64,000 nucleotides of DNA from a virus. The stretch's first letter is position 1; each line of letters opens with the position of its first letter. The stretch is from positions 1 to 64,000 of IMG/VR virus record IMGVR_UViG_3300036846_000489. One strand, written 5' to 3'. Positions 50,456 to 63,915 of the stretch are shown piece by piece. A model generated the notes under the pieces. It was not told the DNA's origin and ran no database searches. It worked only from the letters and a program-made list of their open reading frames with translations. A program made the position numbers and the translations under genes.

Positions 50456-50842
50456 TCCCCTTCGGGGTGTGGTGTCCTTCCACAGAGAGCCGGGCGATCC
50501 CGTCGCTCGGCTCTCACCACATCTGGCGCGAGAAGGGGCTTGACCGCGCAAGATGAGCGAAGGCATGCTTTCCCTATCGTCGCGGGATCGCACACCTTGG
50601 AGCCAGCTATGTGACCTGCTAGCGCAGCATTATGAATGGATACGGAATTGGTGTGCTACCTGTTGGGCATCCAGCGACGCGGGTAGAAGCCGGGATAGTC
50701 TTTTCCTTCTTGCCACCACTCACGAGCAAGTTTCGGCGCTCTCAGTAGGGCCGCGTCGCGTTCTTCCCCTAGAGACAGCAGGTGGAAGTAGGCTCTGAAT
50801 ACCAAGGCACGATGTTCCCCCACCCGCATGTCCAGGTGGCGG

Positions 50843-51697: not shown

Positions 51698-51942
51698 GAG
51701 GATTTCCTGTCCAGCTTGATGTCGTGGGTGCGGTGGCCGTATGATCTACCGGTTCTTATGGCATCGACCAGTTCCTCCATCAGTTCAACAAACTCATGAG
51801 GGGGTGTGGTCGAGACCACGCGATTTTTCTTTTCTCCCGCCAGTCGATAGATCAGCAGCCAGTCACCGTCATCGCCTATTGCCTTGGCGAGAAACTGACC
51901 TACGGCATCAGCTATGAATTCATCCTCTTTGTCTTCGGTCAT
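51694..51942 (-). CDS. Cassette gene, hypothetical
   Basis: Start preceded by AAGGACACCAAATG. Confidence 0.65.
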   Translation of the reverse strand: MTEDKEDEFIADAVGQFLAKAIGDDGDWLLIYRLAGEKKNRVVSTTPPHEFVELMEELVDAIRTGRSYGHRTHDIKLDRKSS

Positions 51943-52014
51943 TTGGTGTCCTTTTCCTGTTTCCAGCGAAGTGCTGGTGCAGAGAGCCACGCCCCACGGG
52001 ACGCGCTCCCTGCA

Positions 52015-52266
52015 TCAATGCTTCGTCTCCGCAGCGTCTTTTAAGGCGGTGAGTTTGAGGATTAATTTCACTAGCATCGTCAATAGGCTCGACCGAATTT
52101 CTGCGGTGTCCTTGTCGTCTTCCCCATAATGCCCAGCAACCCATATGGCGGTTAGTTCGGCGAGAACTGCGCCCTGTATGGCTGAGGACTTGCCAGCCAG
52201 GATCGGCTTGATCTGACCGATCAGAGCGATTATTTCCTCTACGTCTTTCTTGGCGAAATCGGTCAT
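52015..52266 (-). CDS. Cassette gene, hypothetical
   Basis: LAGK...IQGAVLAEL.A.WVAGH; stop lies in type B element. Confidence 0.65.
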   Translation of the reverse strand: MTDFAKKDVEEIIALIGQIKPILAGKSSAIQGAVLAELTAIWVAGHYGEDDKDTAEIRSSLLTMLVKLILKLTALKDAAETKH

Positions 52267-53309
52267 CAACGCACCTCGTAGTGGGAACGGTTGGACTTGA
52301 AGCTCTTCCGCTGTTCCTCGGTAGCATTGACCAGTGTGTCCGCGATCCAGATCGACCGACCCGTGGCGTAGTTTCTCGGGTGTCCCATGCGGATGTGGAA
52401 CTGCGGACTTGCGTGGTGCCCGCCCAGACCTTCGCTCCGCTCCCGATGACCGCGTGCCAGAATAGCCGTGACATACGGCTCACTAAGCACCCGGTCGTAG
52501 TGCGGGATCGGCGGCTTCCGGCTTTTCATCCTGGCACGTTGCAATTTCTCCGGTGGCCGAACTGTCTCCCGATCCACCCCGCGCGTGGCGAGGATCATCA
52601 GGCAACAGATAATCGGGTCACCGATATTGCAGCTTGCCGCCTCGTGGGCCGATTGTCCGTTGTTCTGCAAGGCACGGAATTCATCGTCGGCGACGAACCG
52701 CAGAATAGACGGTGCCACTTGGGAAATATGGTCAACGCCAAGTTCCGGTGGCGGCACCATGAACATGCCACGGTCACCGATTACCAGGAGTTGCTGGTAA
52801 CCGAGCGTCAAGGGCTGAAGCTCGCAGACTTCGAAGGTCGTGTCGGAAGGACGATTGACCAGATAGACCGCTATCGCCTTGGTTTCTGGCAACACCACTG
52901 GCTGAGGGCCTGCGCCCTTCCAGATGAGGTTATGATCCCAAGTGTGGTAGCAAATCCACGGGTCGGAAAATGGGAAACCCAAGGCTCCCATATTCCACAT
53001 CTTCCCGCCACGCTTCGCGCATTCCGAGATGACCAAGTTCGGCAAGTGACCGAAGTCGATGACCCTGCCGGCTGTCACCGCATCGCGGCACCGAAGGGAG
53101 ATCAATTCAACCTCCCTCTGTGTCGAGGCGTATTCACGGCTCTCGGGAAGCAACCGCATGTTCGATGACTGGAAACCGGTGACGCGAAAATCGAGCACCG
53201 CGTCCCGCATCTGCGTGACGGTTGGTCTCCACTCCATGTCCAGCGACATAGTTAGCTCCTGCCCGAAGATCACCTGACCTTCGGGAGTTCTCATTAGTCT
53301 CGGTTCCAT
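52266..53309 (-). CDS. Cassette gene with C-terminal HxRxGH motif
   Basis: Conserved start sequence; HASPQFHIRMGHPR. Confidence 0.75.
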   Translation of the reverse strand: MEPRLMRTPEGQVIFGQELTMSLDMEWRPTVTQMRDAVLDFRVTGFQSSNMRLLPESREYASTQREVELISLRCRDAVTAGRVIDFGHLPNLVISECAKRGGKMWNMGALGFPFSDPWICYHTWDHNLIWKGAGPQPVVLPETKAIAVYLVNRPSDTTFEVCELQPLTLGYQQLLVIGDRGMFMVPPPELGVDHISQVAPSILRFVADDEFRALQNNGQSAHEAASCNIGDPIICCLMILATRGVDRETVRPPEKLQRARMKSRKPPIPHYDRVLSEPYVTAILARGHRERSEGLGGHHASPQFHIRMGHPRNYATGRSIWIADTLVNATEEQRKSFKSNRSHYEVR

Positions 53310-53379
53310 TTGGTGTCCTTCTCTGTGTCCCCTGGTCGGGGCGAGGACAGCACCGATGCCGGCGCTGCCTTCGTCCAGA

Positions 53380-53997
53380 TCAGCGAATATCAACCTTTTT
53401 CGCCGCGCCTTGCTCAAGAGCGGCTTTGAGTATCTGTTGGGCGGCATCGCGTTCTTCGAAGGTTGGCTCCCTTTCCGGCAGAACCTCGGCAAAACTTCCC
53501 ATTATGAAACTCTGCGGGTCAGAGGTCTTTTCATCCTTTACCCCGGTGCATTTGCCTTTCGCGTTTCTTACGACTTCGGCTTGTGCCACGGCGGTAAGGC
53601 GTTCACCGGTATCGTCGTTGCGCCATATGATCTGTGCTATGACGACTTCTTGGCGATCTTCCCGTTGGCTCGGCATGACCTCGGGATATTCTGGGTCCGG
53701 TTCTCCTGGCTTGCTGCTCGCAATCCAGGCTTCGCCGATGAAGGCGACGGCGAACCCGTTGTCGGCTATACAGATGAGCCGGGCCATTTCCCGGTGTCCG
53801 CGTTTTTCCTTGTCGTCGTAGTTGTTCATTCCGCCGACACCTATCGGGGTAACTCTATGGGCGGCATGAACCACGAATAGCGGCATAAGGTGTCCTTCTT
53901 TGGTGATACACCGCTTGGCATATTCTAGATCAAGCCGAAGTTGTTTGGCATAATCGAACTTTCCCTTGGCGATGTTTGGTCCGGTTTTTCTCGGCAT
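53380..53997 (-). CDS. Cassette gene, hypothetical
   Basis: Conserved start sequence; EAWI...PSQREDRQEVV; TGA inside element. Confidence 0.75.
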   Translation of the reverse strand: MPRKTGPNIAKGKFDYAKQLRLDLEYAKRCITKEGHLMPLFVVHAAHRVTPIGVGGMNNYDDKEKRGHREMARLICIADNGFAVAFIGEAWIASSKPGEPDPEYPEVMPSQREDRQEVVIAQIIWRNDDTGERLTAVAQAEVVRNAKGKCTGVKDEKTSDPQSFIMGSFAEVLPEREPTFEERDAAQQILKAALEQGAAKKVDIR

Positions 53998-54070
53998 CTG
54001 GTGTCCTTCCTGTTCTCCCCTGGTCGGGGCGGTGACAGCCACGGAATATCCTTGGCTGCCCCCGTCTGGA

Positions 54071-54235
54071 TCAGGGCAAATACCTCTCAGCGACGTTCTC
54101 GCGCTTAATGAACTTCAGTAGGGCTGAATAGAATTCTTCCAGCCGTTGCTCGCCGTCCTGTTGCGACAGCCGTTGTTGCCAATGCTCCAGGAAATCCCAG
54201 GCATTGATCAACGCTCTTTCCCGGTCATAGAACAT
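54071..54235 (-). CDS. Cassette gene, hypothetical
   Basis: TGA inside element. Confidence 0.5.
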   Translation of the reverse strand: MFYDRERALINAWDFLEHWQQRLSQQDGEQRLEEFYSALLKFIKRENVAERYLP

Positions 54236-54458
54236 GAGCGGCCGCCAGCAGTAATCCAGCGACAATTCCGACCACCAGGAACAGGCTGAAGCCGCCCTGT
54301 CCTGGCCGTTCCCGATCCCGCCTTCTCTCGGTGATTTCGATGTTGACCACCACGCGCCGGGGCGGCCCGCCTGAAGGCGGGGGAGGATCGTTGTGGAAGG
54401 AATTGCCGTCCAGTAAGTAGTCGAATGAGCCACGCTTCGGCTCCTTGTTCTTCAGCAT
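54225..54458 (-). CDS. Small membrane-anchored protein
   Basis: C-terminal hydrophobic segment. Confidence 0.5.
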   Translation of the reverse strand: MLKNKEPKRGSFDYLLDGNSFHNDPPPPSGGPPRRVVVNIEITERRRDRERPGQGGFSLFLVVGIVAGLLLAAAHVL

Positions 54459-54685
54459 ATGCCCAACTCCTTCTTGGTCCGATCAACCAGATTTTCCCAC
54501 TCCTTGCAGGCATCTTCCAGCCAGTTGATTGACTTGGCCGATCCCTGAAATTCGTAGGTATCGCGATCAAAGTGAAGACCGTTGAGCACCTCTCTTGCCG
54601 CCGCTCTCATCGAACAGGCAACATCATACATCAATTGCTTGTTCGCTTTCATAGCGACGGCCTGATCTTCAGTTCTTTTCGGCAT
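54452..54685 (-). CDS. Cassette gene, hypothetical
   Basis: Conserved start sequence. Confidence 0.6.
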   Translation of the reverse strand: MPKRTEDQAVAMKANKQLMYDVACSMRAAAREVLNGLHFDRDTYEFQGSAKSINWLEDACKEWENLVDRTKKELGIC

Positions 54686-54790
54686 GGGTTTGGTGTCCTT
54701 CTCTATTCCCCGACCGACTGGTCGAGGCGACAACAGCACCGCGCAAGGCGGGCTGTTCCCGTCAGGATCAGCACGACAGTCTGGCGACCG

Positions 54791-55402
54791 TCAGTGGTAT
54801 CTCCGGTGGTTGCCGTCGGCGGACCAATTTACTTCGTGCCAGTCCGCGACCGGCCCAGGCACGGTCAGAACCGGCACGGCCAATGCCCCGATGATCCCAG
54901 CGGACGCCCTGCCCTCTACACCGGCCAGGACGATCAGCGTGCCACGAGTAAGGAGCGTGGCCTTTTGGTTCGGGAACAGAACCGGCTCCTTGGTATTATC
55001 GAGGCGATCAAGGCTGCTTTCGAATTCGGCAATTCCCTGTTCCCCCAGGCGGGTTGCCAGGGTGACAAGGGCGCCGTGGCTGTCAGCTTGAAGAATGAAA
55101 GACGCCATGGTTGACCACAGTGCTGCCCGGTCTTCCAGGTCGGTATTATTTATCTCTGGGACCGGGTCAGACCACCGAAGCATGTCGCAGATCATTCCCC
55201 GGTTGGGGGAGGCAAATACCACATGCCGCCCATAGCAGGCCGGGAGTGCTAGTTTCCCAGCTTCCTCTGAAGCGATGGCATCGACAACCTCCTGCAAGGT
55301 CGGAATACAGCGACGCAGTATTCGCTTCGTGCTCGGCTTTTGCGCGCGGCCTTTCACCACATCCTCTAAGGTCATGGTGGCGACGTGTTCTCCTAGTGTC
55401 AT
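54791..55402 (-). CDS. Cassette gene, hypothetical
   Basis: Conserved start sequence. Confidence 0.65.
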   Translation of the reverse strand: MTLGEHVATMTLEDVVKGRAQKPSTKRILRRCIPTLQEVVDAIASEEAGKLALPACYGRHVVFASPNRGMICDMLRWSDPVPEINNTDLEDRAALWSTMASFILQADSHGALVTLATRLGEQGIAEFESSLDRLDNTKEPVLFPNQKATLLTRGTLIVLAGVEGRASAGIIGALAVPVLTVPGPVADWHEVNWSADGNHRRYH

Positions 55403-55479
55403 GGGTTGGTGTCCTTCTCCGTCCTCGACTTCTGGTCGAGGCGGCGACAGCGCGGCTTCCCGTGCTGTCTCCGTCCAGA

Positions 55480-56637
55480 TCAGGGTCGTCTCCTGATGAC
55501 GTCATAATCGTCGTGAACAACGAAGCCGCGTGAGGCGTCGCCGCGTTCATGCTCCGGTCGCCACCAGCGTTTGCCGCCACAGTCCGAACAGACCCAATTA
55601 TCCGGATCGTCCGGCCCAGCGTCCGGCCACGGCAGCCATTTCGGTGGACCGTGGTTCGGTTCGAAGTTGTGGACGCACCCGGCGATCCTGGAATAATCGC
55701 GGGCTTCCTTGTTGTGGCAGTAGTGACCACGAACTTCGTGCCGGCGACGCGGCACAGCGTCACCCGCCGGGGTGCCGATCAGCCTTAAGGTCGGCACCGG
55801 ATCGATCTCTATGGTCACCGTGGTATGTGCCATGTAGGCCCGGAACTTGCCGCTGATGAAGCCAGGGGCATTCGGCAGAGAGTTCCGGTAGCTGGTCAGC
55901 GACGGCCGGTTGAGCATCAGCAGGATCGCGATGATCGTCCGAAAGTCGCCAATCGTGCCACGTGCCATGGACGCCATGCCGCCGTCAGCGGTCCATTTAT
56001 GGTAGGATGGATGGGCCGGATTGAGCGGCGTCTGTTCCATGACGTTGAACTCTCGCAGCACGCGCCGTTCGTCGTTGGTCAGGTTGTCCCAGGTTGATCC
56101 CCACATAAGCATGTCGAGGCTCATCCGAGAGCACCCGCACAGACGGGCGAATTCCAACTGATCGTCTATCGGCCATTCGGTTCTTAGTCGATACTGCATT
56201 CCGGTCACCTGCGGGTCAGTGACCGGGTTGGCCACCGTGCCGCCGCAGATGGTATTGATCCGATTATGGTCGATCAGATACCCGACCGTGTGATCGGCAC
56301 TGTCAAGTTCGCCATACCAGCCGGTATTTTCATACCGTCCTGGATCAGCGTCGCGTAGCACCTTCCAGTAAATCCACGAAGGCCACTCTATCCAGGTGAC
56401 CTCGAAAGGTGGTCTGGCGAAGCCGTGTTCCCGCACCAGAAGTGAAGGAATATCACGCACGACCTGGGCAATACGCTCCGCGGCCCGCTCGTCAAAGACG
56501 AACTTATGGGCGGCACGCATGGAGCGTTGAAGCATGTCCATGGTTTTCGGATGGACGAACCGCTCCTTGGCCGAAAACTTATGAGCCAAAAAGCGGTCAG
56601 CCAGTATTGGCCCCCGCTTGGTAGGTGTTTTGGCCAT
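55480..56637 (-). CDS. Cassette gene with HEVRGHY and Cys-rich C-terminus
   Basis: Start-sequence variant; RRRHEVRGHY, CSDCGG, HERGDAS. Confidence 0.75.
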   Translation of the reverse strand: MAKTPTKRGPILADRFLAHKFSAKERFVHPKTMDMLQRSMRAAHKFVFDERAAERIAQVVRDIPSLLVREHGFARPPFEVTWIEWPSWIYWKVLRDADPGRYENTGWYGELDSADHTVGYLIDHNRINTICGGTVANPVTDPQVTGMQYRLRTEWPIDDQLEFARLCGCSRMSLDMLMWGSTWDNLTNDERRVLREFNVMEQTPLNPAHPSYHKWTADGGMASMARGTIGDFRTIIAILLMLNRPSLTSYRNSLPNAPGFISGKFRAYMAHTTVTIEIDPVPTLRLIGTPAGDAVPRRRHEVRGHYCHNKEARDYSRIAGCVHNFEPNHGPPKWLPWPDAGPDDPDNWVCSDCGGKRWWRPEHERGDASRGFVVHDDYDVIRRRP

Positions 56638-56712
56638 GTTGTGTCCTTCTGTTCTCCCCGAGCATGTCTGATCGAGGCGGAAACAGCCATGCTGCTTCCG
56701 TCCGGATCAGGC

Positions 56713-56738
56713 AAAGAAAAGGGGAGCCGAAGCTCCCC
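56713..56738 (-). terminator. Intrinsic terminator (UUCG loop)
   Basis: On - strand: GGGGAGC-TTCG-GCTCCCC-TTTTCTTT. Confidence 0.8.
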
Positions 56739-56769
56739 ACAAAGTCTGGGTCGGATATTTTCTGCCGGT

Positions 56770-57408
56770 CTACGCCGACCGACGCCGCAACAGGGTCAGG
56801 CCGATCAGGCCCATCCCGAGGATCACAAGCGAGGCAGGCTCCGGCACGGCCGTCGCCGAAGCACTGATGTCACCCGCAAAGCTGGCATTGAAGGCGCCAA
56901 TTGTGCTGCCGTCCAAGGCAAGGGTGGGCAGCAGATTGGTGAACGCCAGATTGAACGAGCTTGGGGGCACCAACTCGTTGGCCGGAATGACGTTGCTGGC
57001 CAACGTGAGGCTCTCCGGGGGGTTGTTGACATTGACTGTCAGACCCGGCCCACCATTTGCCCCAAAGGCGGCATCGGTGAACGTGCCAGAGAGGAAGTTA
57101 CCCGTGCATCCGGCAGCACTTGAGATACAGAAGCTTCCCGAGTAATGCTGGATGATGTTGCCCGCTACCGTGATTGCCGCATCGATAGAATGCGCGGAGA
57201 GGGTCATCATGGCGCCAGGAATGGCACCGAGAATACCGCCGCCCAGCAAAGCTAGCTGGTTGGTGTAACTGATATTCGTCACGGTGCCATTGTCGGTCGC
57301 TACCACGGTATTCGTCGTGGCCTCCTGAGCGAAAGTCGTAAGCAAGGCGGCTTCCGCTACTGTCGGCAAGGCCACGGCGATGGTGGAGGCAAGCAAAAGT
57401 GCCTTCAT
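56770..57408 (-). CDS. PEP-CTERM sorted secreted/surface protein
   Basis: Signal peptide MKALLLASTIAVALPTVAEA; C-terminal VPEPASLVILGMGLIGLTLLRRR. Confidence 0.9.
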   Translation of the reverse strand: MKALLLASTIAVALPTVAEAALLTTFAQEATTNTVVATDNGTVTNISYTNQLALLGGGILGAIPGAMMTLSAHSIDAAITVAGNIIQHYSGSFCISSAAGCTGNFLSGTFTDAAFGANGGPGLTVNVNNPPESLTLASNVIPANELVPPSSFNLAFTNLLPTLALDGSTIGAFNASFAGDISASATAVPEPASLVILGMGLIGLTLLRRRSA

Positions 57409-57518
57409 CTGGTTTCCTTTCGGGTTGGTGTGAACACTCAGTCTCCCCGGCTTTGCTGGCCGAGGCCGGAACGCCCGCCACAGTTTCCTGTGGGGACGCT
57501 CCGGTCAAGGTCAGATTT

Positions 57519-57728
57519 CTACCGTCTCCGGTGGCTGGCATCTATAGGTTCGATGTCGGTCTCAACCTGACGGGGATCGCGGCCCTGTTGTATCCGCGAT
57601 ATCCTGGCGGGCAGGATGATATCCCGATTGCAGTCGTCGCAGCACCGGCCATGGTTGATCGGCTCCGCGTTGTTCCCGAACCGGGTGTATGGCCGCCCGC
57701 AGATCGTGCAGGCTCCGTTCTCATCCAT
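57519..57728 (-). CDS. Small zinc-binding protein
   Basis: CTICG...GNNAEP...GRCCDDCN. Confidence 0.7.
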   Translation of the reverse strand: MDENGACTICGRPYTRFGNNAEPINHGRCCDDCNRDIILPARISRIQQGRDPRQVETDIEPIDASHRRR

Positions 57729-58224
57729 CCTTGTTCTCCTCTTCCTTGCGCGGCATTCCGGAAAGAAGCTGACCGTAGGTGTGGAGCACCTCGGTCACCG
57801 GCTTGCCGTCTCGGAAGAACGTGATGGTTCCCGCCGCCTCTGAGGCGCGAGAGTTGCCCCAGGCGTCGAACTCGGCACGATCCATCCAAATGATGTTCCG
57901 ACGCAGCCATTCGACGGTGACCACCGGATCGACCGTGTAGTAGCCTCCCGGCACGTCTTCGTCTTCGACCTCTTCGCCCACAACCACACCGTTGCCGGCC
58001 ATTGGCTGGTCGGTGCGGAATGCGCAGAAGAAAAAGTGCATGGTTGGTTTCAGCAAGCCTTCCTCGTCCACGAACATCACATCTCCAGACGGGAACCGAA
58101 AGGCCGCTTCGATCCAGCCACCGATATAGTCACCGACGGTAGGAAGCTCGCCTTCGGCACTTTGTATGCGATATTCGACCTCACGGATTTCCCGCTTCAC
58201 GGCATCAATGAGAATTGCCTTCAT
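57721..58224 (-). CDS. DUF3846-like protein
   Basis: MKAILID, IGGWIE, FVDEEGLL, AGNGVVVG. Confidence 0.65.
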   Translation of the reverse strand: MKAILIDAVKREIREVEYRIQSAEGELPTVGDYIGGWIEAAFRFPSGDVMFVDEEGLLKPTMHFFFCAFRTDQPMAGNGVVVGEEVEDEDVPGGYYTVDPVVTVEWLRRNIIWMDRAEFDAWGNSRASEAAGTITFFRDGKPVTEVLHTYGQLLSGMPRKEEENKDG

Positions 58225-58308
58225 GGGTATTTGGTGTCCTTCCATTCAGTTTCCCCAGGCTGGCTGAGGCGAGGACAGCCACCGGCCTGAGCCGGCGCTG
58301 CCTTCGTC

Positions 58309-58491
58309 TTAGTCAGGGTCTATCGGCTCGTCGTGATCGTAGTTCGGATCGGTCAGAACCTCTGGCCGGAACGCGGCCAGCTTCTCCTTTTCGCATTTCC
58401 CGCACATGTATCCGAGAGGAATTCCCCTCGCATCCAGTCCGACCCACGGCCACTCGCCGCTGCCGCACGGGCATTCAGTCAGCATCGCCAT
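58309..58491 (-). CDS. Small zinc-binding protein
   Basis: CPCGSG...DARGI....C.KC...FRPEVL. Confidence 0.65.
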   Translation of the reverse strand: MAMLTECPCGSGEWPWVGLDARGIPLGYMCGKCEKEKLAAFRPEVLTDPNYDHDEPIDPD

Positions 58492-58778
58492 CATGGTTCT
58501 CCGTCGTGGCCAACGGCTTTCTGGTCCGCCACGCCATCGACGGTGCGATGGCGTCCGGCGTATTCCCACTGGACCTGATGGAAGCGTTCGATATTCGCGA
58601 TGTCACGAATATCCAACTTGAACCCCAGAGCCAAGTAGATTAGTTCCAAATCGCCTTGGTTGAGCCGGTCGAGGTTGGGCAAGGTGGCATGAGGGATGCC
58701 ACAGTGCTCAATGATCCACTCACGGATGACGCGGACCAGTTCGTATTTGTCTGGCCGCATCTTGGGAGGAAGCGACAT
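58491..58778 (-). CDS. Hypothetical protein
   Basis: TGATG-coupled to upstream minigene; SD GGGAGG. Confidence 0.55.
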   Translation of the reverse strand: MSLPPKMRPDKYELVRVIREWIIEHCGIPHATLPNLDRLNQGDLELIYLALGFKLDIRDIANIERFHQVQWEYAGRHRTVDGVADQKAVGHDGEP

Positions 58779-58894
58779 CACGCTGCCTCCCGAGGGTCTT
58801 CAGTATTTATCGGCATTTGGTGTCCTTTCCAAAGTCCTCGGCGAACTGGCCGAGGCGGCGGTAGCCACGACAAGCGCAGCTACCCCCGTCCAGG

Positions 58895-59113
58895 TCAGAT
58901 CAACTTGATCTCGACAGAAGTGACCGTGTAGGGGCCGTTGCAGCCAAGGCCGGGAGAGCCATACACGGCCTTCCCGTGGGTCAGTTCCCAGAAGCTTTTC
59001 TGCCGAGCCTGAAGGTAGACATCATCAAGCTCACCTTCGCAGATCGACTTTGTCTCCCAGGTCTGGCCCTTGGCAGCGGTGCCACGAAGGGTGCAGTTGT
59101 AGAGGCGGATCAT
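58895..59113 (-). CDS. Cassette gene, hypothetical
   Basis: LTHGKAVYGSPGLGC.GPY; TGA inside element. Confidence 0.6.
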   Translation of the reverse strand: MIRLYNCTLRGTAAKGQTWETKSICEGELDDVYLQARQKSFWELTHGKAVYGSPGLGCNGPYTVTSVEIKLI

Positions 59114-59445
59114 GCCGGCCTCCTTATGAACTCTCGGCCCGGCCTGGACCGAATACCATGGATCAGATCGTCATGTTCTGTAGCGAACCGAACCATGGCA
59201 CGGCGAAGGTCCAGCATCACGTCGCAGATTTTCCGCAGGCGATCCACCTCTTTCTGATCCATCGGAAACTCCGACAACTGCGCCATGGCATCACAGAGGT
59301 TCGATACCATCGCGTTCATCCGGCCCAGGATCAGGTCTTTCTGATCGGTCTCTTTCTGGTATTTCGCCATCAACAAAGCCATGCTGGAACGCGCTTCTCG
59401 CGCTTCAGCCTTCGCCTGTTGCAGCGGTGTAGGGTTTCGAGGCAT
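59110..59445 (-). CDS. Cassette gene, helical
   Basis: Conserved start sequence. Confidence 0.6.
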   Translation of the reverse strand: MPRNPTPLQQAKAEAREARSSMALLMAKYQKETDQKDLILGRMNAMVSNLCDAMAQLSEFPMDQKEVDRLRKICDVMLDLRRAMVRFATEHDDLIHGIRSRPGREFIRRPA

Positions 59446-59520
59446 TTGGTGTCCTTCCGTTCTCCAGCGCAAACGCTGGTGCAAAGAGCCACGGGCCATT
59501 GCTGACCCGCGCTCCTTGCA

Positions 59521-59991
59521 TCAAGGTTTGTTTGCTTCTCGCGCTATCCGCTCGTCTTCCTTCGTCGCATAATGAGGAAGTTCGCGCAGAGAAAGGCGGG
59601 GCCTTCCAGGCTTTTTTGGCCCAGGTGTTCTTTCCCGTTTCTTTTCCGGTGCTCGCTTTCCCAGCCTATGGGCTTTGGTAGGCGCAAAAAGTGTGAGTTT
59701 GCCGTAGACAAACCGTCCTTCGGTATCGAATTGACGAATGACTTCTGGCCAGTGGTTGACGTATCTCAGCCAGTGTTTTGCCCCTTCTTCTAGCACATAA
59801 GCTCGGTATTTATAGACTATCGCTGCCCGAGCGCCTTCGCGCATTAACGAACGAGCCCAAGGGCAGTCGCACGGATCGTTGGGGCAGGCGCCCTTGATAT
59901 CAACAAGAAGAGCCACGACAGGTCTATTCTTCTTCGCGTCCACTATGGGTAGTCCTAGAAAGGCTGGATGGTTTCTCATCATGGATGCCAT
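59521..59991 (-). CDS. Cassette gene, hypothetical
   Basis: Conserved start sequence; DPCDCPWARSL. Confidence 0.7.
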   Translation of the reverse strand: MASMMRNHPAFLGLPIVDAKKNRPVVALLVDIKGACPNDPCDCPWARSLMREGARAAIVYKYRAYVLEEGAKHWLRYVNHWPEVIRQFDTEGRFVYGKLTLFAPTKAHRLGKRAPEKKRERTPGPKKPGRPRLSLRELPHYATKEDERIAREANKP

Positions 59992-60084
59992 TTGGTGTCC
60001 TTCTCTGTTTCCTGGTCCGGGTCTGGCCCAGGCGGAAACAGAAACGGCCCCCGAAAGGGCCGCTCTGCTACCGTCACGGTCAGA

Positions 60085-60351
60085 TCATCCCCGCCGCGTG
60101 ATGGTCACGTCGTATCCCTTGTCCACGATTTTCTGGATCAGAATTTCCAGGTCTTCGTGATCGTCGGGGAAAAGCATGTGCAACAGCTTTTTCACCTTGG
60201 CGGGACGCGGCTGGGCGTTGCCGTTCTCGATCTGCGACAGATAGCCATTGGACAATCCGGCACGTTCCGCGAGAGCGGTCTGAGACAAACCGCGTTCCTC
60301 ACGGGCTTGCCTGATCTTTTCGCCCAGGTCGGGGCTGTCGAAATTCACCAT
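60085..60351 (-). CDS. XRE-family HTH regulator
   Basis: KIRQAREERGLSQTALAERAGLSNGYLSQIENG. Confidence 0.88.
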   Translation of the reverse strand: MVNFDSPDLGEKIRQAREERGLSQTALAERAGLSNGYLSQIENGNAQPRPAKVKKLLHMLFPDDHEDLEILIQKIVDKGYDVTITRRG

Positions 60352-60353
60352 GG

Positions 60354-60569
60354 TCAACCTCCTGTCTTCCACCATCGGCCGTGATCGCCCAGAGTGTATT
60401 TCTGGCCGACCCCGACGCCGAGGCCAAAGCCGAACAGAAGATGGCATCTCAGGCACATCATTGCCCACGGCCCCCGACGGGTTGCTCCATCAACAAAGTC
60501 GGTGTTGAGGGAGCCGCGGCAGATGGCACAGGCAACAGGCTTGCTGCCTTGCCAGTAAAGCTTGGTCAT
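60354..60569 (-). CDS. Small zinc-binding protein
   Basis: CAIC...FVDGAT..GPWAMMC..C...G.GLG.G.GQKY. Confidence 0.7.
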   Translation of the reverse strand: MTKLYWQGSKPVACAICRGSLNTDFVDGATRRGPWAMMCLRCHLLFGFGLGVGVGQKYTLGDHGRWWKTGG

Positions 60570-60654
60570 TTGGTGTCCTTTCCGTTTCCCCCGATCCGCT
60601 GATCGAGGCGGTGGCAGCACCGCACAGCGGCGGGCTGCCCCCGTCCGGATCAGA

Positions 60655-61209
60655 TCATTCCATCCAGAAACAATTATACCGTTCGCGTTTCGCCATCCGG
60701 CACTTCAGGTTGTTCGCCTCGGCGATCCCTCGCAGATAGGCGAACCACTTCGCACTGGTCTGACCCGTGTGATCGCTGAGTTCCTTTCTCGAAACCCCCT
60801 GCGGCCGGCGAGATTGCTCGACTGCCCAATCGACGAACCCGGCGGGCAGTTTGGAGAGGCTGGGACCGCCCTTGATCTCCGGCCCCCGGTATTCCCCAGG
60901 CTCGACTTCTTCCGGCTTGGGAGAAGCCTCAGCGGCCTTCCTGGCAGCCTTCTTCGGCGCCGGCGCTTTCTTCGCGGTCGGTGCCGCCGCTTTCTTCTTC
61001 TTCGCAGCCTCGATACGCACGACGTTGCTTCCTTCATCGTCAGGAAGCGGACGATCAATCAGGCACCACTTGCCTTCAGCATTCTGTCCCGGCATGTGGT
61101 CGGCACCGAGCAGACGCAGACCGGAGCGCTTGAACTCCTTCTCCATGTCTTCCTTGCTGTCCCATGTCCGAGTTTGTGCCTCGACAATGGTCATGCGTGT
61201 AGCGGCCAT
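60655..61209 (-). CDS. K/A-rich protein with DUF3489-like winged helix
   Basis: AKKAPAPKKAARKA; RRPQGVSRKELSDHTG. Confidence 0.6.
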   Translation of the reverse strand: MAATRMTIVEAQTRTWDSKEDMEKEFKRSGLRLLGADHMPGQNAEGKWCLIDRPLPDDEGSNVVRIEAAKKKKAAAPTAKKAPAPKKAARKAAEASPKPEEVEPGEYRGPEIKGGPSLSKLPAGFVDWAVEQSRRPQGVSRKELSDHTGQTSAKWFAYLRGIAEANNLKCRMAKRERYNCFWME

Positions 61210-61319
61210 GAATGTGTCCTTCTGTCCGTGGTGGAAATTCCCGGGACTGGCCCAGGCGGAAAAAGCGTGGGGCAGAGGTTTCCCCCTGCCCCGAGTTGTT
61301 TCCGTCACGGTCAGTCAGA

Positions 61320-61739
61320 TCAGGCGCGCTTGCGCACTGCGATCTTGGTCAGCTTGAACACCGGCTTGCCGCCAGAGACGCTGTAGGCGAGGCCGTTGCT
61401 CGTGGCCAACCGTTCTACCCATGGCCGCCACGCCACTTGGTTCTGTCCGGCTCGGCGCGCCAGCATGGCCCGCGTTACCCCTCCCGGACTGGACGCCATC
61501 TCCAATACCATCTTCGCGAAATCCTTCGGCAGGATGGTATCGTTGACCGGCGGCATCGGCGTTCTGGCTTTTCTCGGCGCTCTGGCTTTTCTTTCTGCCC
61601 GAGGCTTCCGAGCCGACTTCTTCGCTTCCCGGCCCGGTTTCGGGCCTTGACGCCCCCCGGCCACTACCTTGAACTTCTCTGGCACCGCAGCCATGCGGGC
61701 TGAGGCGCTGTTCTTTTTCTTGATTACGGTCTTAGCCAT
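61320..61739 (-). CDS. Basic protein with DUF3489-like winged helix
   Basis: K/R-rich N-half; MASSPGGVTRAMLARRAG. Confidence 0.6.
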   Translation of the reverse strand: MAKTVIKKKNSASARMAAVPEKFKVVAGGRQGPKPGREAKKSARKPRAERKARAPRKARTPMPPVNDTILPKDFAKMVLEMASSPGGVTRAMLARRAGQNQVAWRPWVERLATSNGLAYSVSGGKPVFKLTKIAVRKRA

Positions 61740-61850
61740 TGTCTTAACCCTCTTGTTCGAAGACGCACGCCCGCAGTCGGGACGTGCCCCCGGCATACTG
61801 GCCGAGGCCGCAGCACCACCACGGTTTCCCGTGGGGTGCTCCGGTCCGGG

Positions 61851-62036
61851 TCAGGTATCGAAGTCGCGGCGATGCGCCGCTAGGATTTCCGCGATTTCCT
61901 CTGATGGGATCGGCTCGGCCCGATAGAGGATATCGATGTCCGGCACTTTGCTGATGATCATCCGGTAGCCGGGTGGCATTTTCTCCAGCAACATGAGAAT
62001 GGTTGCTGCCACGTCGGCATTTTCATCGTTTACCAT
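61851..62036 (-). CDS. Cassette gene, hypothetical
   Basis: SD AGGAG; TGA inside element. Confidence 0.55.
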   Translation of the reverse strand: MVNDENADVAATILMLLEKMPPGYRMIISKVPDIDILYRAEPIPSEEIAEILAAHRRDFDT

Positions 62037-62328
62037 CCGTTTCTCCTTGCCCTAAAAAGCGAAAGCTGAGACCGTGATTGCCGTCGTTCTCCCCGACAAA
62101 GGATATCGCTGGATGCCCCTCGATCAACAGAAGGTCTTCGTAGAAGCTGTCCCATTCGTCGATCACGGTATCCATCTCTTCCCCTTCTTTCGGGTAGTTC
62201 TCGGCTATGTAGGCGTCGAGCGACATCTGCCGAGCCAATAATACGGCGTTGCCTTCTTCCTGGGCATTCACCCGGATCGCTTGCATGTAGCCTTCGTCTC
62301 CTATCAGGATGACGGTGTAGGGTTGCAT
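62023..62328 (-). CDS. Cassette gene, acidic
   Basis: Conserved start sequence. Confidence 0.6.
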   Translation of the reverse strand: MQPYTVILIGDEGYMQAIRVNAQEEGNAVLLARQMSLDAYIAENYPKEGEEMDTVIDEWDSFYEDLLLIEGHPAISFVGENDGNHGLSFRFLGQGETDGKR

Positions 62329-62400
62329 TTGGTGTCCTTTCTCCCGAACCATTCTGGCCCAGGGAGAAACGTCGTCCGCAGACGACGCTTCCCTCACAGG

Positions 62401-62652
62401 TCAGGCTTCTTGGGGTTCGCCAAACAATTCCTTCCACATCTCGACCGTGGAGAACTGTTCGACCAGCTTCTTCGCCTCGTCCTCTGGCTGCGGCTCTATG
62501 CTCATGGTTTCGTAGCTCTTGACGAAGAGGTAGAACCGGGAGCTTGCGGTGCGATACAGGATCGCATGATCCCAGTGGAGATACTGGCCGAGGTCGCAGA
62601 TCGGCTTTCCCTTATCCGTATCGTAGAGAACGCCGTCGATTATTTTCTGCAT
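62401..62652 (-). CDS. Cassette gene, small protein
   Basis: KIIDGVLYDTD...LYRT....FYL...EA...FGEPQEA. Confidence 0.7.
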   Translation of the reverse strand: MQKIIDGVLYDTDKGKPICDLGQYLHWDHAILYRTASSRFYLFVKSYETMSIEPQPEDEAKKLVEQFSTVEMWKELFGEPQEA

Positions 62653-62735
62653 TTGGTGTCCGTCCTTCTGTCTCCCGTGCCAACCACTGGCCCAGGCGAG
62701 GACGGCCACGGTTCCCCGCGCCGCCTTCGTCTTGG

Positions 62736-63032
62736 TCAGATAAGTGGTTTCCATCCACCCCATGGGGGAAGCTCTTCGCCCCACCGTTTCTTCGGCTTCA
62801 CCCTCTTGCTGCGTGCGGTCACCGCCCGATCATGGGCGGCTCCCAACGCGGCATCCGACATTGGTTTCTCTTTCGCCCGAGACCAGCTATCGCTTGGCCC
62901 CACACGAAGCCGAACCTCTGGCACGCTTCCATAGGGCAGACCCTTCGCCTTGGATTTCCGGTTGGGATTTCCCTGACGAAGGAACTTCCTGCCCTTCGGA
63001 TACGACCAGTTAATCCGAGACTTTTTCTTCAC
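62736..63032 (-). CDS. Basic hypothetical protein
   Basis: GTG start; TGA inside first element. Confidence 0.45.
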   Translation of the reverse strand: MKKKSRINWSYPKGRKFLRQGNPNRKSKAKGLPYGSVPEVRLRVGPSDSWSRAKEKPMSDAALGAAHDRAVTARSKRVKPKKRWGEELPPWGGWKPLI

Positions 63033-63198
63033 TCGGAATAGGCTCGAATATGACCGACCACTCGGGGTTTGATCCTTCCGGGTTGCATCTGATTACGATC
63101 TGCTCTCCGGGAGAAAGGTCGTCGAGAAACTCGACCACCCGCTGAATGATGGCGAACCTTGGTTCTTCGTATTCGCGCTTGTTGGCGACTTCTTCCAT
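63010..63198 (-). CDS. First gene of early operon, hypothetical
   Basis: Start preceded by GAAGGACAGACACATG. Confidence 0.55.
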   Translation of the reverse strand: MEEVANKREYEEPRFAIIQRVVEFLDDLSPGEQIVIRCNPEGSNPEWSVIFEPIPSEEKVSD

Positions 63199-63199
63199 G

Positions 63200-63880
63200 T
63201 GTCTGTCCTTCCGTTCACACTCGTGCTCTGTCTTGGGGGCTTGCAACCCTCGGCAACCTTTCGGCTGACGGCGACATTCCGACCGACCCCCGTAGGGGCC
63301 GGGCGGTGAACAGAGGTTAAGGACACACCAAATTTTCGTATGAATACAACCGAGACTGTTTCGCCCTTCCCGCCCGCAAGATCGCCTCACGGCTACCCTT
63401 ACGACTTGTTCTCAGGCTAGGCTGTATCCACACGCCCGTATCCATTCACAATGCTGGCTTACACGCTGACGCCAGCAGACATCCGACAACCCTGCTCACG
63501 CCCACCGGGCGTTTTTCTAGGTGTCGGTGTATCTACTGTGTCAGCCAGAGCGGGGCGCTCTTGGCAGGCTTACAAGGATCGCGCTCTCCCGGTATTCCCA
63601 ACGCGCATTGATCCAGGGGGGTTTATGTTGCTGCCCATTTCGCCTTGCCAGTCTGATACCCTTTGCGACCTCTGTTGAGGTCGGGCCTTCTGGGTGGCAC
63701 TATGGCGTGGCCGTGGTCCGCTCCTTGACACACTGTCGGCCAGCGTGTCACCTCGGACACCGTCCACTTGCACCTCGGAAGTTCTTTCCTCGCACGCTTG
63801 CAGCGCCCCATCTTCACCTGTCAAAGAACCCGCCGGGGTCGAAGGCGGGGCGGCCCGCCGCCCCTTTTCCTCCCGGCCAT
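63200..63880 (-). ncRNA. Long structured 5' leader / candidate ncRNA
   Basis: No SD-supported ORF; long imperfect stems (e.g. 63466-63546, 63301-63366); lies between promoter and first gene. Confidence 0.55.
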
Positions 63881-63886
63881 TTTAAG

Positions 63887-63915
63887 ATCATAGCAAATTT
63901 TACCAGGTTTGTCAA
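63887..63915 (-). promoter_or_regulatory. Near-consensus sigma70 promoter with extended -10
   Basis: On - strand: TTGACA-17 nt-TATGAT, with TG one base upstream of the -10 (TGcTATGAT). Confidence 0.85.

What the first reader, a model, noticed from the sequence alone, without database searches (positions are those of the whole stretch)
51940..63211. Conserved start-associated sequence GAAGGACACCAAATG on the first gene of each cassette
Seen: near-identical extended RBS at starts 51942, 53309, 53997, 54685, 55402, 58224, 58816, 59445, 59991, 60569, 62328 and 62652. Variants occur at 56637, 57408, 61209, 61739 and 63198. Conservation extends beyond the SD into the spacer (CACCAA), which ribosome binding alone does not need. 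I did not see it at structural or replication gene starts. Known: mycobacteriophage start-associated sequences are a precedent. Inference: target of a common translational regulator, or part of the cassette unit. It also corrects many ORF-track starts.
Basis: partly seen in the sequence, partly recalled or inferred. Interest (0 to 1): 0.7.

Follow-up and report, generated by a model that had tools for sequence, protein, structure and literature searches.

The report
Standard ribosome-binding module on phage cassettes
A 75-kb soil phage puts the same ready-made ribosome-binding sequence, preceded by a folded RNA spacer, in front of the first gene of each of about 17 early-gene cassettes, so shuffled genes of unknown function may all be expressed and perhaps controlled in the same way.

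Summary
GAAGGACACCAAATG (minus strand) occurs 13 times at up to 2 mismatches, against 0.13 expected. All 17 listed starts carry it or a variant, and structural, replication and cassette-internal genes do not.

It is the Shine-Dalgarno plus spacer core of a roughly 25-nt initiation module. That module ends an 80-120-nt connector between genes: stop codon (often the TGA in CTGAYC), covarying hairpins, an A/C-rich open leader, then ATG.

Two relatives (G001/L376 and L409) share the connectors and RRGGACAC, but their spacers vary and their cassette order differs. Relatives place twister ribozymes at the same position, and a sub-threshold twister precedes the first gene here.

The module's reverse complement is the only conserved island in the roughly 700-nt leader. 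A copy without a start codon closes the array in all three phages.

My best reading is a standardised insulator/processing-plus-RBS part that also marks cassette boundaries. RBS:anti-RBS control is a plausible added layer. No expression data exist.

The closest analogues are Cluster K SAS/ESAS and T4 PeSLs, and I file this as a new variant. This scan had already noted the two-state hairpins on related DNA (e1-5361019).

The parts
63887..63915 (-). Only strong sigma-70-type promoter of the array (TTGACA-17-TATGAT, with TG extension)
   Evidence: 11 of 12 consensus matches. No comparable promoter lies inside any connector.
63320..63347 (-). Inverted copy of the initiation module in the leader (TTTGGTGTGTCCTTAACCTCTGTTCA), an anti-RBS in the sense transcript
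   Evidence: It is the only shared word of 14 nt or more between the otherwise diverged leaders of this phage and G001. It folds onto the first RBS in both phages. No antisense ORF is conserved (read from sequence).
63220..63283 (-). Probable twister-P1-type self-cleaving ribozyme between the anti-RBS and the first RBS
   Evidence: 32 bits (gathering 67.2), full-length match, E 2.4e-5 in the local search. Where the consensus has CCC and GGG, this copy has UGC and GCA, which could still pair. That reading rests on my assumption that these triplets form a pseudoknot. G001 shows a similar CCA/UGG change.
63196..63211 (-). RBS module variant GAAGGACAGACACATG of the first gene (63198-63010)
62650..62739 (-). 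Type A connector: CTGACC (stop TGA), hairpin H1, hairpin H2, then GACGGACACCAAATG
62326..62404 (-). Type A connector ending in AAAGGACACCAAATG
61737..61854 (-). Type A connector with a degenerate RBS (GAGGGTTAAGACAATG)
61207..61314 (-). Type A connector whose H1 top is terminator-like, ending in GAAGGACACATTCATG
60567..60653 (-). Type A connector ending in AAAGGACACCAAATG
59989..60083 (-). Type A connector ending in GAAGGACACCAAATG
59443..59524 (-). Type B connector (TTGATG...CACCAG hairpin, CCAGC/GCTGG second hairpin) ending in GAAGGACACCAAATG
   Evidence: The same type occurs in G001 and L409.
58814..58898 (-). Type A connector ending in AAAGGACACCAAATG. This ATG opens a 12-codon mini-ORF coupled (GTGATG) to the next gene.
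58222..58316 (-). Type A connector ending in GAAGGACACCAAATACCCATG (ATA in place of ATG, start shifted 6 nt)
57406..57514 (-). Type A connector ending in AAAGGAAACCAGATG, upstream of the PEP-CTERM gene
56635..56710 (-). Type A connector ending in GAAGGACACAACATG, upstream of the 385-aa gene. It follows the intrinsic terminator at 56721-56738.
55400..55483 (-). Type A connector ending in GAAGGACACCAACCCATG
54683..54771 (-). Type A connector ending in GAAGGACACCAAACCCATG
53995..54074 (-). Type A connector ending in GAAGGACACCAGATG
53307..53383 (-). Type A connector ending in GAAGGACACCAAATG
51940..52018 (-). Type B connector ending in AAAGGACACCAAATG
50440..50560 (.). Conserved element at the array end: box CTCATCTTGCGCGGTCAAG, a hairpin, then a module without a start codon (GAAGGACACC at 50471-50480) exposed in the loop of a short 5-bp hairpin that lies between two stronger hairpins. 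On the + strand it reads as an anti-RBS.
   Evidence: present in all three phages. In this phage and G001 the flanking hairpins pair better on the strand antisense to the array.

Best explanation
The motif is the Shine-Dalgarno plus spacer core (RAAGGACAC-CAA-AUG) of a roughly 25-nt standardised translation-initiation module. The module consensus is GGGRRAACAGA-GAAGGACACCAA-AUG.

This module is the 3' end of an 80-120-nt intercistronic connector. The connector is repeated about 17 times in one long early operon, on the minus strand and driven by a single promoter, of a 75-kb soil myovirus.

Each connector has three parts in order:
- a stop codon, usually the TGA inside CTGAYC;
- a structured RNA, which is a two-hairpin element of type A (14 copies) or type B (2 copies), or a probable twister ribozyme before the first gene;
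- an A/C-rich leader that cannot fold, carrying a purine Shine-Dalgarno sequence, followed by AUG.

Shown:
- the anatomy of the connectors;
- covariation of the hairpins;
- higher predicted RBS accessibility than at other genes of the phage;
- restriction of the module to the first gene after each connector;
- conservation of RRGGACAC in three phages;
- re-ordering of cassettes between the phages.

Inferred:
- the structured part insulates or processes the polycistronic early RNA;
- the module gives any inserted gene the same open, moderately strong RBS;
- the repeated modules and arms serve as homology patches at which cassettes are shuffled, plausibly by the phage's Erf-type annealing protein;
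- near-identity of CACCAA within this genome reflects homogenisation and/or matching to the phage's own anti-RBS elements.
For: - **Enrichment and position:** 13 matches against 0.13 expected, all on the minus strand.
- **Specificity:** other genes use AGGAGG-type Shine-Dalgarno sequences, and internal cassette genes use GGAG with overlapping stop/start codons.
- **One promoter:** only one sigma-70-type promoter serves the whole array.
- **Fold of the sense RNA:** the minimum-energy fold of the connectors is usually H1 plus H2 with the RBS left unpaired.
- **Covariation of H1 and its arms:** 86.5% of cells are paired against 76.4% in shuffles. Ten of 17 pairs change on both sides. The covariation score is 0.381 against 0.179 (0 of 500 shuffles). 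Slid controls score 0.16 or less.
- **Base helix:** variable positions pair in 51 of 52 cases, and no shuffle exceeded 47 (0 of 20000).
- **H2:** cognate arms give -11.2 kcal/mol against -8.7 for non-cognate arms (0 of 5000 shuffles).
- **Strand of the structure:** the upper H1 stem has 33 G.U pairs and H2 has 16, all in the sense strand.
- **RBS accessibility:** the unpaired probability over -13..+3 is 0.60, against 0.42 +/- 0.12 for 59 other genes of the phage.
- **Relatives:** G001/L376 and L409 carry the same type A and type B connectors. G001 also has a terminator-like type C. All are followed by RRGGACAC.
- **Cassette order:** it differs between the phages.
- **Ribozymes in the same slot:** at least five twister matches in L395, two of them at or above the Rfam gathering score, each between a stop codon and a conserved leader plus ATG. 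One Twister-P5 above gathering lies in G001 just 5' of a module. A sub-threshold twister lies before the first RBS here.
- **Recombination protein:** an Erf-like annealing protein is encoded at 40562-42088.
- **Independent recurrence:** unrelated IMG/VR phage contigs also pair AAGGACA(C/A)-nnn-ATG with repeated regulatory units. This suggests the sequence is a generally good RBS.
Against: - There are no RNA data. No RNA run is listed for this DNA, so transcription from one promoter, processing and translation strength are all inferred.
- Insulation needs only an unstructured spacer. It does not explain why 11 of 17 spacers are exactly CACCAA.
- In the relatives the spacer is variable. Selection and gene conversion therefore cannot be told apart.
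- RBS accessibility is the same in both conformations of the two-state element. The purpose of the switch, and of the invariant A.C mismatches, remains unexplained.
- The type A and type B elements match no known ribozyme.
- The host is unknown, so pairing of RAAGGA with the 16S 3' tail rests on general knowledge.
- The units are paralogues, so the shuffle statistics overstate independence.
Confidence: 0.6

Rival explanations
1. The module is kept uniform because it is the target of a phage-encoded global regulator that acts by RBS:anti-RBS pairing. One anti-RBS sits in the early leader, where twister cleavage could release it. A second would be made from the + strand at the convergent end of the array, as the 3' tail of the replication operon. 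It would shut off early translation when middle genes come on. This could operate on top of the best explanation.
For: - The leader copy is a 26-28-nt near-perfect reverse complement of the whole module.
- It is the only conserved island in a leader that has otherwise diverged between two phages.
- It pairs with the first RBS in the minimum-energy folds of both phages.
- A twister-like element lies between the two partners.
- The terminal copy without a start codon is conserved in three phages. In this phage it sits in the loop of a short hairpin between two stronger hairpins. In G001 it is mostly single-stranded in the antisense fold.
- In this phage and G001 the flanking hairpins pair better on the antisense strand, and the z-scores are better there.
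- Cluster K phages also keep one inverted SAS copy with no associated gene.
- Mean duplex energy of the leader element with array starts is -24.4 kcal/mol, against -15.8 for other starts.
Against: - The leader copy may act only in cis on the first gene.
- G001 modules of the AAAGGACC type would pair over only about 7 nt.
- More distant relatives with their own standard RBS show no clear inverted copy in the stretches fetched.
- No promoter or terminator defines a small RNA.
- The terminal copy could be the remnant of a lost cassette.
- The duplex-energy contrast is noisy for the terminal element.
- There are no expression data.
Confidence: 0.3
2. The motif is a protein-binding site. It could be an operator on the mRNA for a RegA-like translational repressor. 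Alternatively it could be an asymmetric DNA site like the L5 stoperators, at which a repressor blocks elongation through the early operon.
For: - There are about 17 copies in one orientation, in intergenic positions of one operon, plus one inverted copy near the promoter end.
- An XRE-type HTH protein is encoded in the array at 60085-60351.
- Pope et al. raise binding by a host or phage product for SAS, and DNA binding for ESAS.
Against: - The motif keeps a Shine-Dalgarno-like distance to ATG and is the only Shine-Dalgarno candidate at these starts, which stoperators do not require.
- Only RRGGACAC is conserved across the three phages.
- The inverted copy lies about 550 nt downstream of the promoter.
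- No candidate RNA-binding repressor was identified.
Confidence: 0.08
3. The connectors are attC-like recombination sites of an integron-like cassette array. On this view the RBS motif is merely the conserved flank of the site.
For: - The sites are imperfect palindromes with conserved outer (CTGAYC/GRYCAG) and inner (GACGG/CCGCC) boxes, and with a centre variable in length and sequence.
- The lower stem pairs better on the + strand, with A.C in the sense strand equal to G.T in the antisense strand.
- One upstream promoter serves small cassettes of unknown function.
- Cassette order differs between relatives.
Against: - No tyrosine recombinase or other site-specific recombinase was found anywhere near the array or among the proteins scanned.
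- There is no GTTRRRY/RYYYAAC core.
- Three or four unrelated connector types (A, B, C and twister) occupy the same slot, which one recombinase could not serve.
- The upper H1 stem and H2 carry G.U pairs in the sense strand, pointing to structure at the mRNA level.
Confidence: 0.04
4. The motif has no special role. It would be the host's ordinary optimal RBS, or a recent duplication that has not yet diverged.
For: AAGGACA-type RBSs recur in unrelated phage contigs, so the sequence may simply be a good RBS.
Against: - Within the same phage about 95 other genes do not use it.
- The hairpin tops next to the motif have diverged completely while keeping their pairing. The units are therefore old, yet the motif stays identical.
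- RRGGACAC persists across phages whose shared proteins are only about 30-73% identical.
Confidence: 0.03

Closest known systems
[quoted passage not shown] 2011, PMC3203893; 2025 survey PMC12699233)
   Same: - A short asymmetric motif in 11-19 copies.
- Found only in the non-structural half of the genome and in one orientation.
- Lies a few bases upstream of mostly ATG starts.
- Contains the Shine-Dalgarno core plus conserved bases that rRNA pairing does not need.
- One inverted copy has no associated gene.
- About half the copies are preceded by imperfect inverted repeats with a variable spacer.
- Associated with genes of differing families.
- Function is still unknown.
   Different: - The sequence is different: GAAGGACACCAA against GGGATAGGAGCCC.
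- The phage type and host are different (soil myovirus; the PEP-CTERM cargo hints at a Gram-negative host).
- Here every copy has an upstream structured element.
- Departures in the repeats DO preserve RNA pairing, which Pope et al. did not find for ESAS.
- The stop codon of the upstream gene sits in the left arm.
- Relatives place twister ribozymes in the same slot.
PeSLs (promoter-early stem-loops), the mobile regulatory cassettes of T4-type phages (Arbiol et al. 2010, PMC2839356; Comeau et al. 2014, PMC4122927)
   Same: - Composite conserved intergenic motifs flank small genes of unknown function in plastic early regions.
- They are associated with insertion, deletion and re-ordering of genes between close relatives.
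- They supply expression signals to newly acquired genes.
   Different: - A PeSL is an early promoter plus a terminator-like stem-loop.
- Here the units contain no promoter; one promoter serves the whole array.
- Here the conserved expression signal is the RBS.
- Here the structured part is a two-hairpin, two-state element without a U tract.
RNase III processing sites of the T7 early region (R0.3-R1.3), and ribozyme insulators such as RiboJ in synthetic biology
   Same: - Structured elements lie between the cistrons of one long early transcript.
- They are expected to cut or insulate the RNA so that each downstream RBS works in a fixed context.
- Relatives use self-cleaving twisters at the same place.
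   Different: - Cleavage is not shown here.
- The type A and type B elements match no Rfam family.
- They show two conserved, nearly iso-energetic folds.
- The RBS itself is standardised, which is not a feature of the T7 sites.
Integron attC sites
   Same: - Imperfect palindromes with conserved outer and inner boxes and a variable centre lie between promoterless cassettes downstream of one promoter.
   Different: - No integrase is present.
- There is no GTTRRRY core.
- Several unrelated connector types occupy the same slot.
- G.U pairs in the sense strand point to an mRNA structure.

Membership tests
Cluster K SAS/ESAS | 13-bp consensus GGGATAGGAGCCC with up to 2 mismatches | tested here: not met
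   The motif here is GAAGGACACCAA.
Cluster K SAS/ESAS | Asymmetric motif, one orientation, a few bases upstream of mostly ATG starts, non-structural genes only | tested here: met
Cluster K SAS/ESAS | [quoted passage not shown] | tested here: met
   The inverted copy lies at 63320-63347 and is conserved in G001. No antisense ORF is conserved.
Cluster K SAS/ESAS | Upstream imperfect inverted repeats with a variable spacer (ESAS), judged not to form RNA hairpins | tested here: not met
   Inverted repeats are present, but here they covary as RNA helices.
T4-type PeSL | An early promoter inside each repeated unit | tested here: not met
   Only one sigma-70-type site (63887-63915) serves the array, and none lies inside a unit. 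Other promoter types are not covered by the scan.
T4-type PeSL | A stem-loop in each unit, and units at the boundaries of gene gain, loss or shuffling between close relatives | tested here: met
Integron (attC/IntI) | A tyrosine recombinase IntI encoded next to the array | tested here: not met
   No recombinase domain was found in the proteins scanned with Pfam or PHROGs. Not every small ORF was scanned.
Integron (attC/IntI) | R''/R' core sites RYYYAAC...GTTRRRY | tested here: not met
   The arms are CTGAYC...GRYCAG.
Twister ribozyme (Rfam RF03160 / RF02684), for the element at 63220-63283 | Score at or above the Rfam gathering threshold | tested here: not met
   It scores 32 bits against 67.2. 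Relatives do pass: G001 scores 40.9 against 37.6, and L395 scores 53.7 and 40.2.
Twister ribozyme (Rfam RF03160 / RF02684), for the element at 63220-63283 | Conserved core nucleotides and pseudoknot complementarity | tested here: inconclusive
   AA..CGCC, GGU..CAAGCCC and GAG are kept. The CCC:GGG triplets are replaced by UGC:GCA, which can still pair (read from the alignment). The pseudoknot assignment is from memory. Self-cleavage is untested.
L5-type stoperators | An asymmetric 13-bp DNA site bound by the phage repressor that blocks elongation | not testable with these tools
   The orientation bias fits. No repressor-site relation can be tested. The fixed Shine-Dalgarno-like spacing argues against membership.
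T7-type RNase III intercistronic sites | Cleavage by host RNase III within an irregular hairpin | not testable with these tools
   By my count from the folds, state A gives a 20-25-bp irregular helix. No RNA data are available.

The most novel reading that the evidence does not exclude
The phage may run a translational regulon built from standard parts. Every early cassette would carry the same RBS module so that one or two phage anti-RBS RNAs can switch all of them together. One anti-RBS would be released from the leader by a twister ribozyme. The other would be made antisense at the convergent end of the array.

In addition, the two-state hairpin connector, which pairs or frees the upstream stop codon, would be a new class of intercistronic processing or insulating RNA, standing in for self-cleaving ribozymes. 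If so, this would also offer a mechanism for the unexplained SAS/ESAS motifs of mycobacteriophages.
Probability: 0.25. Interest if true: 0.85.

Novelty: new variant of a known kind. Interest (0 to 1): 0.6.

Why it matters
- **Expression of foreign genes.** It suggests how a phage can take in unrelated genes of unknown function and express them reliably. Each slot supplies a stop codon, an RNA insulator or processing element, and an open standard RBS. This is a natural counterpart of the insulator-plus-RBS parts of synthetic biology.
- **A second system for SAS/ESAS.** It is an independent case, richer in covariation, of the start-associated sequence phenomenon. The function of that phenomenon in mycobacteriophages has been open since 2011.
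- **A role for twister ribozymes.** It links these ribozymes, whose biological role is largely unknown, to a defined slot between early phage genes.
- **Gene calling.** The motif fixes start codons and cassette boundaries in this phage group.
- **An experimental handle.** A cultured relative (Planktothrix phage Pag-Yong1 / Synechococcus phage MinM2) has analogous connectors.

Tried and rejected
- **Phage collection, DNA search.** Megablast of the array found no match.
- **Motif scans of IMG/VR and GTDB genomes.** Almost all hits were single chance matches. The few multi-copy hits were unrelated phages.
- **Hairpin-arm pattern scans.** These gave chance hits in GC-rich genomes, apart from G001.
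- **Rfam at gathering threshold.** Nothing was found on the whole genome. No known ribozyme, miRNA-like or sRNA family explains the type A or type B units, even at E up to 10.
- **attC/integron reading.** Rejected: there is no recombinase and no core site.
- **Per-unit promoters.** Rejected.
- **Programmed read-through of UGA into the next gene.** Rejected because the frames do not match (73 and 86 nt offsets, read from the sequence).
- **A closing helix between the left arm and GAACAG.** It is inconsistent across units.
- **State A versus state B as a switch of RBS accessibility.** No difference was seen, 0.62 against 0.61.
- **Inverted copies of phage-specific RBS motifs in more distant relatives.** None was convincing in the stretches held.
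- **The AAGGACA module in relatives of 55% identity or less.** It is absent.
- **Duplex-energy contrast for the terminal element.** It is noisy.
- **RNA evidence.** No RNA holder is listed. There are only three soil-metagenome DNA runs, one of which may be the source.
- **The look-up of encoding contigs.** Closer homologue contigs such as P0002 could therefore not be fetched that way.
- **Literature.** No paper on Pag-Yong1 was found in the library.

Full report
**1. The observation**

GAAGGACACCAAATG is on the minus strand. With up to 2 mismatches it occurs 13 times, all within 51940-62664. The expected number is 0.13, and none of 100 shuffles reached 13. The core AAGGACAC occurs 20 times against 1.7 expected.

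Eleven of the 17 starts have exactly CACCAA after GGA. Three copies (58224, 55402, 54685) keep GAAGGACACCAA but have the ATG 3-6 nt further on. The conserved unit is therefore the sequence, not merely its spacing.

**2. The genome**

The window is part of a 75,088-bp virus record. It is a myovirus, with a sheath, major head protein, tape measure, Erf-like annealing protein and primase/helicase.

A crude gene call shows canonical AGGAGG-type Shine-Dalgarno sequences at structural and replication genes. Second and third genes inside cassettes use GGAG-type sequences with overlapping stop/start codons.

The array proteins are almost all without a known family. The exceptions are an XRE-type HTH protein, a DUF3846 protein and a PEP-CTERM protein.

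**3. What the motif belongs to**

Each copy is the 3' end of an 80-120-nt connector.

*Type A (14 copies).* On the sense strand it reads CTGAYC-nn-GACGG, a variable GC-rich stem-loop, CCGCC-TC-GRYCAG, 10-40 nt, then GGRRAACAG-RAAGGACAC-CAA-ATG.

- In 8 of the 14 copies the TGA inside CTGAYC is the stop codon of the upstream gene.
- Several other copies have tandem TGATCTGAYC, which gives stops in two frames (read).

*Type B (2 copies, at 59524 and 52018).* It has the same layout with different sequences: TTGATG...CACCAG, then a CCAGC/GCTGG hairpin.

*Promoters and terminators.* Only one strong sigma-70-type promoter serves the array (63915-63887; 11 of 12 matches), and none lies inside a unit. 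Two intrinsic terminator-like sites lie within the array (61292-61269 and 56738-56721). A leader of about 670 nt precedes the first gene.

**4. RNA structure**

Folding whole connectors as sense RNA gives, in most units, two adjacent hairpins with the RBS left unpaired. H1 comprises the variable stem plus CGG/CCG. H2 pairs CCTCGRC with a downstream GYCGRGG.

*Covariation of the long form of H1, by the pair-counting tool:*

| Measure | Observed | Shuffled |
|---|---|---|
| Cells paired | 86.5% | 76.4% |
| Pairs changed on both sides (of 17) | 10 | mean 4.9 |
| Covariation score | 0.381 | 0.179 (0 of 500 reached it) |

Slid controls scored 0.16 or less.

*Covariation over 26 type A units from three phages:*

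- The variable positions of the outer arms pair in 51 of 52 cases. No shuffle exceeded 47 (0 of 20000).
- Cognate H2 arms pair better than non-cognate arms, -11.2 against -8.7 kcal/mol (0 of 5000 shuffles).

*Pair classes are asymmetric between strands:*

| Helix | Watson-Crick | G.U in sense | A.C in sense |
|---|---|---|---|
| Upper H1 | 245 | 33 | 0 |
| H2 | 156 | 16 | 0 |
| L-box | 98 | 5 | 26 |
| Base helix | 133 | 1 | 21 |

The A.C mismatches sit almost entirely at two fixed positions: the A of TGA and the A of GACGG.

*Two conformations.* The base helix and H2 share the right arm, so they exclude each other.

- State A is the long hairpin that pairs the stop codon. State B is H1 plus H2.
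- The two states are nearly iso-energetic, with B lower than A by about 1.8 kcal/mol on average.
- Type B units show the same pattern, read: CTGATG/CACCAG and CTGACG/CGCCAG, again with an A.C mismatch.
- Both folds therefore appear to be selected.
- Predicted RBS accessibility is the same in both states, 0.62 and 0.61. It is higher than for 59 other genes of the phage, at 0.42 +/- 0.12.
- I cannot say what the switch does.

*Caveat.* The units are paralogues, so the shuffle tests overstate independence.

**5. Relatives**

*Close relatives.* A pattern scan found IMGVR_UViG_3300045044_000009 (75,005 bp), referred to here as G001 and held as L246 and L376. A profile of the 385-aa array protein then found 33 viral and 29 metagenomic loci, including L409 at 69% identity.

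- G001 and L409 carry the same type A and type B connectors. G001 also has a terminator-like type C.
- All of these are followed by (T)GAACA(R)-RRGGAC(A/C) and an A/C-rich spacer of 0-11 nt.
- At family level the constraint is therefore RRGGACAC plus composition. The exact CACCAA is a feature of this genome, and of a subset of sites in the others.

*Cassette order differs.*

- The 385-aa and PEP-CTERM cassettes are swapped relative to G001 and L409.
- DUF3846 is followed by a Zn-ribbon gene here but by an XRE gene in G001.

*Other relatives.* More distant relatives lack AAGGACA. Each has its own repeated start-proximal motif, for example TCAAGGAGTGA 14 times in L403 and CACAGGAGA 7 times in L407. 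Unrelated IMG/VR contigs have arrays of hairpin plus promoter plus ...ACGAAAGGACA(C/A)nnnATG, so this RBS type recurs independently.

**6. Ribozymes in the same slot**

I tested this.

- L395 (38% identity) has at least five twister matches, two of them at or above the Rfam gathering score. Each lies between a stop codon and a conserved leader plus ATG.
- G001 has a Twister-P5 above the gathering score (40.9 against 37.6 bits). It starts right after a stop codon and ends just upstream of an RBS module.
- This window has a full-length but sub-threshold twister-P1 match (32 bits) at 63283-63220, immediately before the first RBS.
- In that match the consensus CCC and GGG triplets are replaced by UGC and GCA, which can still pair. 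G001 shows an analogous CCA/UGG change. That these triplets form a pseudoknot is my recollection, not something I tested.

This makes RNA processing or insulation the most likely job of the structured part of the connectors. The type A and type B elements themselves match no known family.

**7. Anti-RBS elements**

These were leads from notes e1-6101531 and e1-6101525, and I tested them in part.

*The leader copy.*

- The leader contains TTTGGTGTGTCCTTAACCTCTGTTCA (63347-63320). This is the reverse complement of the whole module, with two small insertions.
- The leaders of this phage and G001 have otherwise diverged. Two adjacent 14-mers of this element are their only long shared words.
- In both phages the minimum-energy fold pairs the element with the first gene's RBS, enclosing the twister-like region.
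- A divergent small ORF is not conserved (read from the sequence).

*The terminal copy.*

- At the far end of the array, a module without a start codon follows a conserved box (TCATnTTGCGCGGTCAAG) in all three phages.
- In this phage the module sits in the loop of a short hairpin between two stronger hairpins. In G001 it is mostly single-stranded in the antisense fold.
- In this phage and G001 the flanking hairpins pair better on the strand antisense to the array.

*Assessment.* These features fit RBS:anti-RBS control, but other readings remain. The leader copy may act only in cis, and the terminal copy may be a remnant. No inverted copies were evident in more distant relatives.

**8. Comparison with known systems**

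- **Cluster K SAS/ESAS** share almost all the formal features, including a single inverted copy and upstream inverted repeats. Their function is still unknown. The sequence differs, and here the repeats do covary as RNA.
- **PeSLs** share the role in cassette shuffling but contain promoters.
- **attC sites** are excluded by the lack of an integrase and of core sites.
- **Ribozyme processing of polycistronic RNA.** A review notes that this has been suggested for bacterial ribozymes but never defined.

I therefore file this as working like SAS/ESAS and PeSLs, but as a new variant rather than a member of either.

**9. Limits**

- There are no RNA runs.
- The host is unknown.
- Pairing of RAAGGA with the 3'-terminal UCCUUU of 16S rRNA is inferred from general knowledge.
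- The Erf-mediated shuffling mechanism is inference.

Noticed in passing
window 43597-44283 (+): A 228-aa protein carries a full ribosome modulation factor (RMF, PF04957) domain: 35.3 bits against a cut-off of 27.9, covering residues 97-144. It is the first gene of the + strand replication operon. A phage RMF could interfere with Shine-Dalgarno:anti-Shine-Dalgarno pairing, and so bear on which RBS types are translated.
   Followed up: no
window 63220-63283 (-): A probable twister-P1-type ribozyme lies in the early leader, between the anti-RBS element and the first RBS. It is below the Rfam threshold (32 bits), but it is a full-length match with complementary changes in what I take to be a pseudoknot.
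   Followed up: partly
L395 2555-5156 (+); L246 2428-2495 (+): Relatives carry twister ribozymes in the gaps between early genes: at least five matches in L395 and one in G001. Each lies directly after a stop codon and upstream of a conserved leader or RBS.
   Followed up: yes
window 55480-56637 (-): The 385-aa array protein has more than 100 metagenomic homologues. It also has 38%-identical homologues in Planktothrix phage Pag-Yong1, Planktothrix phage Pra-JY27 and Synechococcus phage MinM2. In the Pag-Yong1 record the homologue is annotated as anti-CRISPR AcrVA2. That annotation is untested, and the protein has no Pfam or PHROG match.
   Followed up: partly
L438 (Planktothrix phage Pag-Yong1, OL906435.1 15474-36487): This cultured phage has 10 repeated connectors in 21 kb of early genes. 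Each has the palindrome GGTTCAGSCTGAACC, an A/C-rich leader, a Shine-Dalgarno sequence and ATG. In most copies the palindrome is preceded by cTGATCC, with TGA often serving as the stop codon. It could serve as an experimental model.
   Followed up: partly
L023, L069, L054, L098, L111, L010 (IMG/VR contigs): These contigs share no detected proteins with this phage, yet they have dense arrays of hairpin, promoter-like TTCTAAAGAAGTTATAATG, A/C-rich leader and ACGAAAGGACA(C/A)nnnATG. L023 has 14 units in 4.5 kb. The AAGGACA-type RBS therefore recurs independently.
   Followed up: partly
window 58779-58816 (-): The motif-associated ATG at 58816 opens only a 12-codon mini-ORF (MPINTEDPREAA). Its stop overlaps the start of the next gene (GTGATG), which looks like a leader peptide coupled to that gene.
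   Followed up: no
window 53884-53898 (-): An internal copy, GAAGGACACCTTATG, lies inside gene 53997-53380 with its ATG in frame. It could produce a shorter 168-aa isoform. It was not seen in the G001 orthologue.
   Followed up: no
window 56770-57408 (-) and 56721-56738 (-): This cassette encodes a protein with a PEP-CTERM sorting signal (PF07589, 26.8 bits). Unusually, it is followed by an intrinsic terminator before the next connector. The gene-terminator pair is also present in G001 and L409.
   Followed up: partly
L238 1381-1392 (genome 65381-65392, -), outside the window: A further module (GGAAGGACACCACGATG) follows a terminator hairpin in a second minus-strand gene group.
   Followed up: no
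L401 (IMGVR_UViG_3300037418_001546, a 523-kb contig): About 40 tRNA genes are packed into roughly 12 kb, next to a distant homologue of the 385-aa protein.
   Followed up: no
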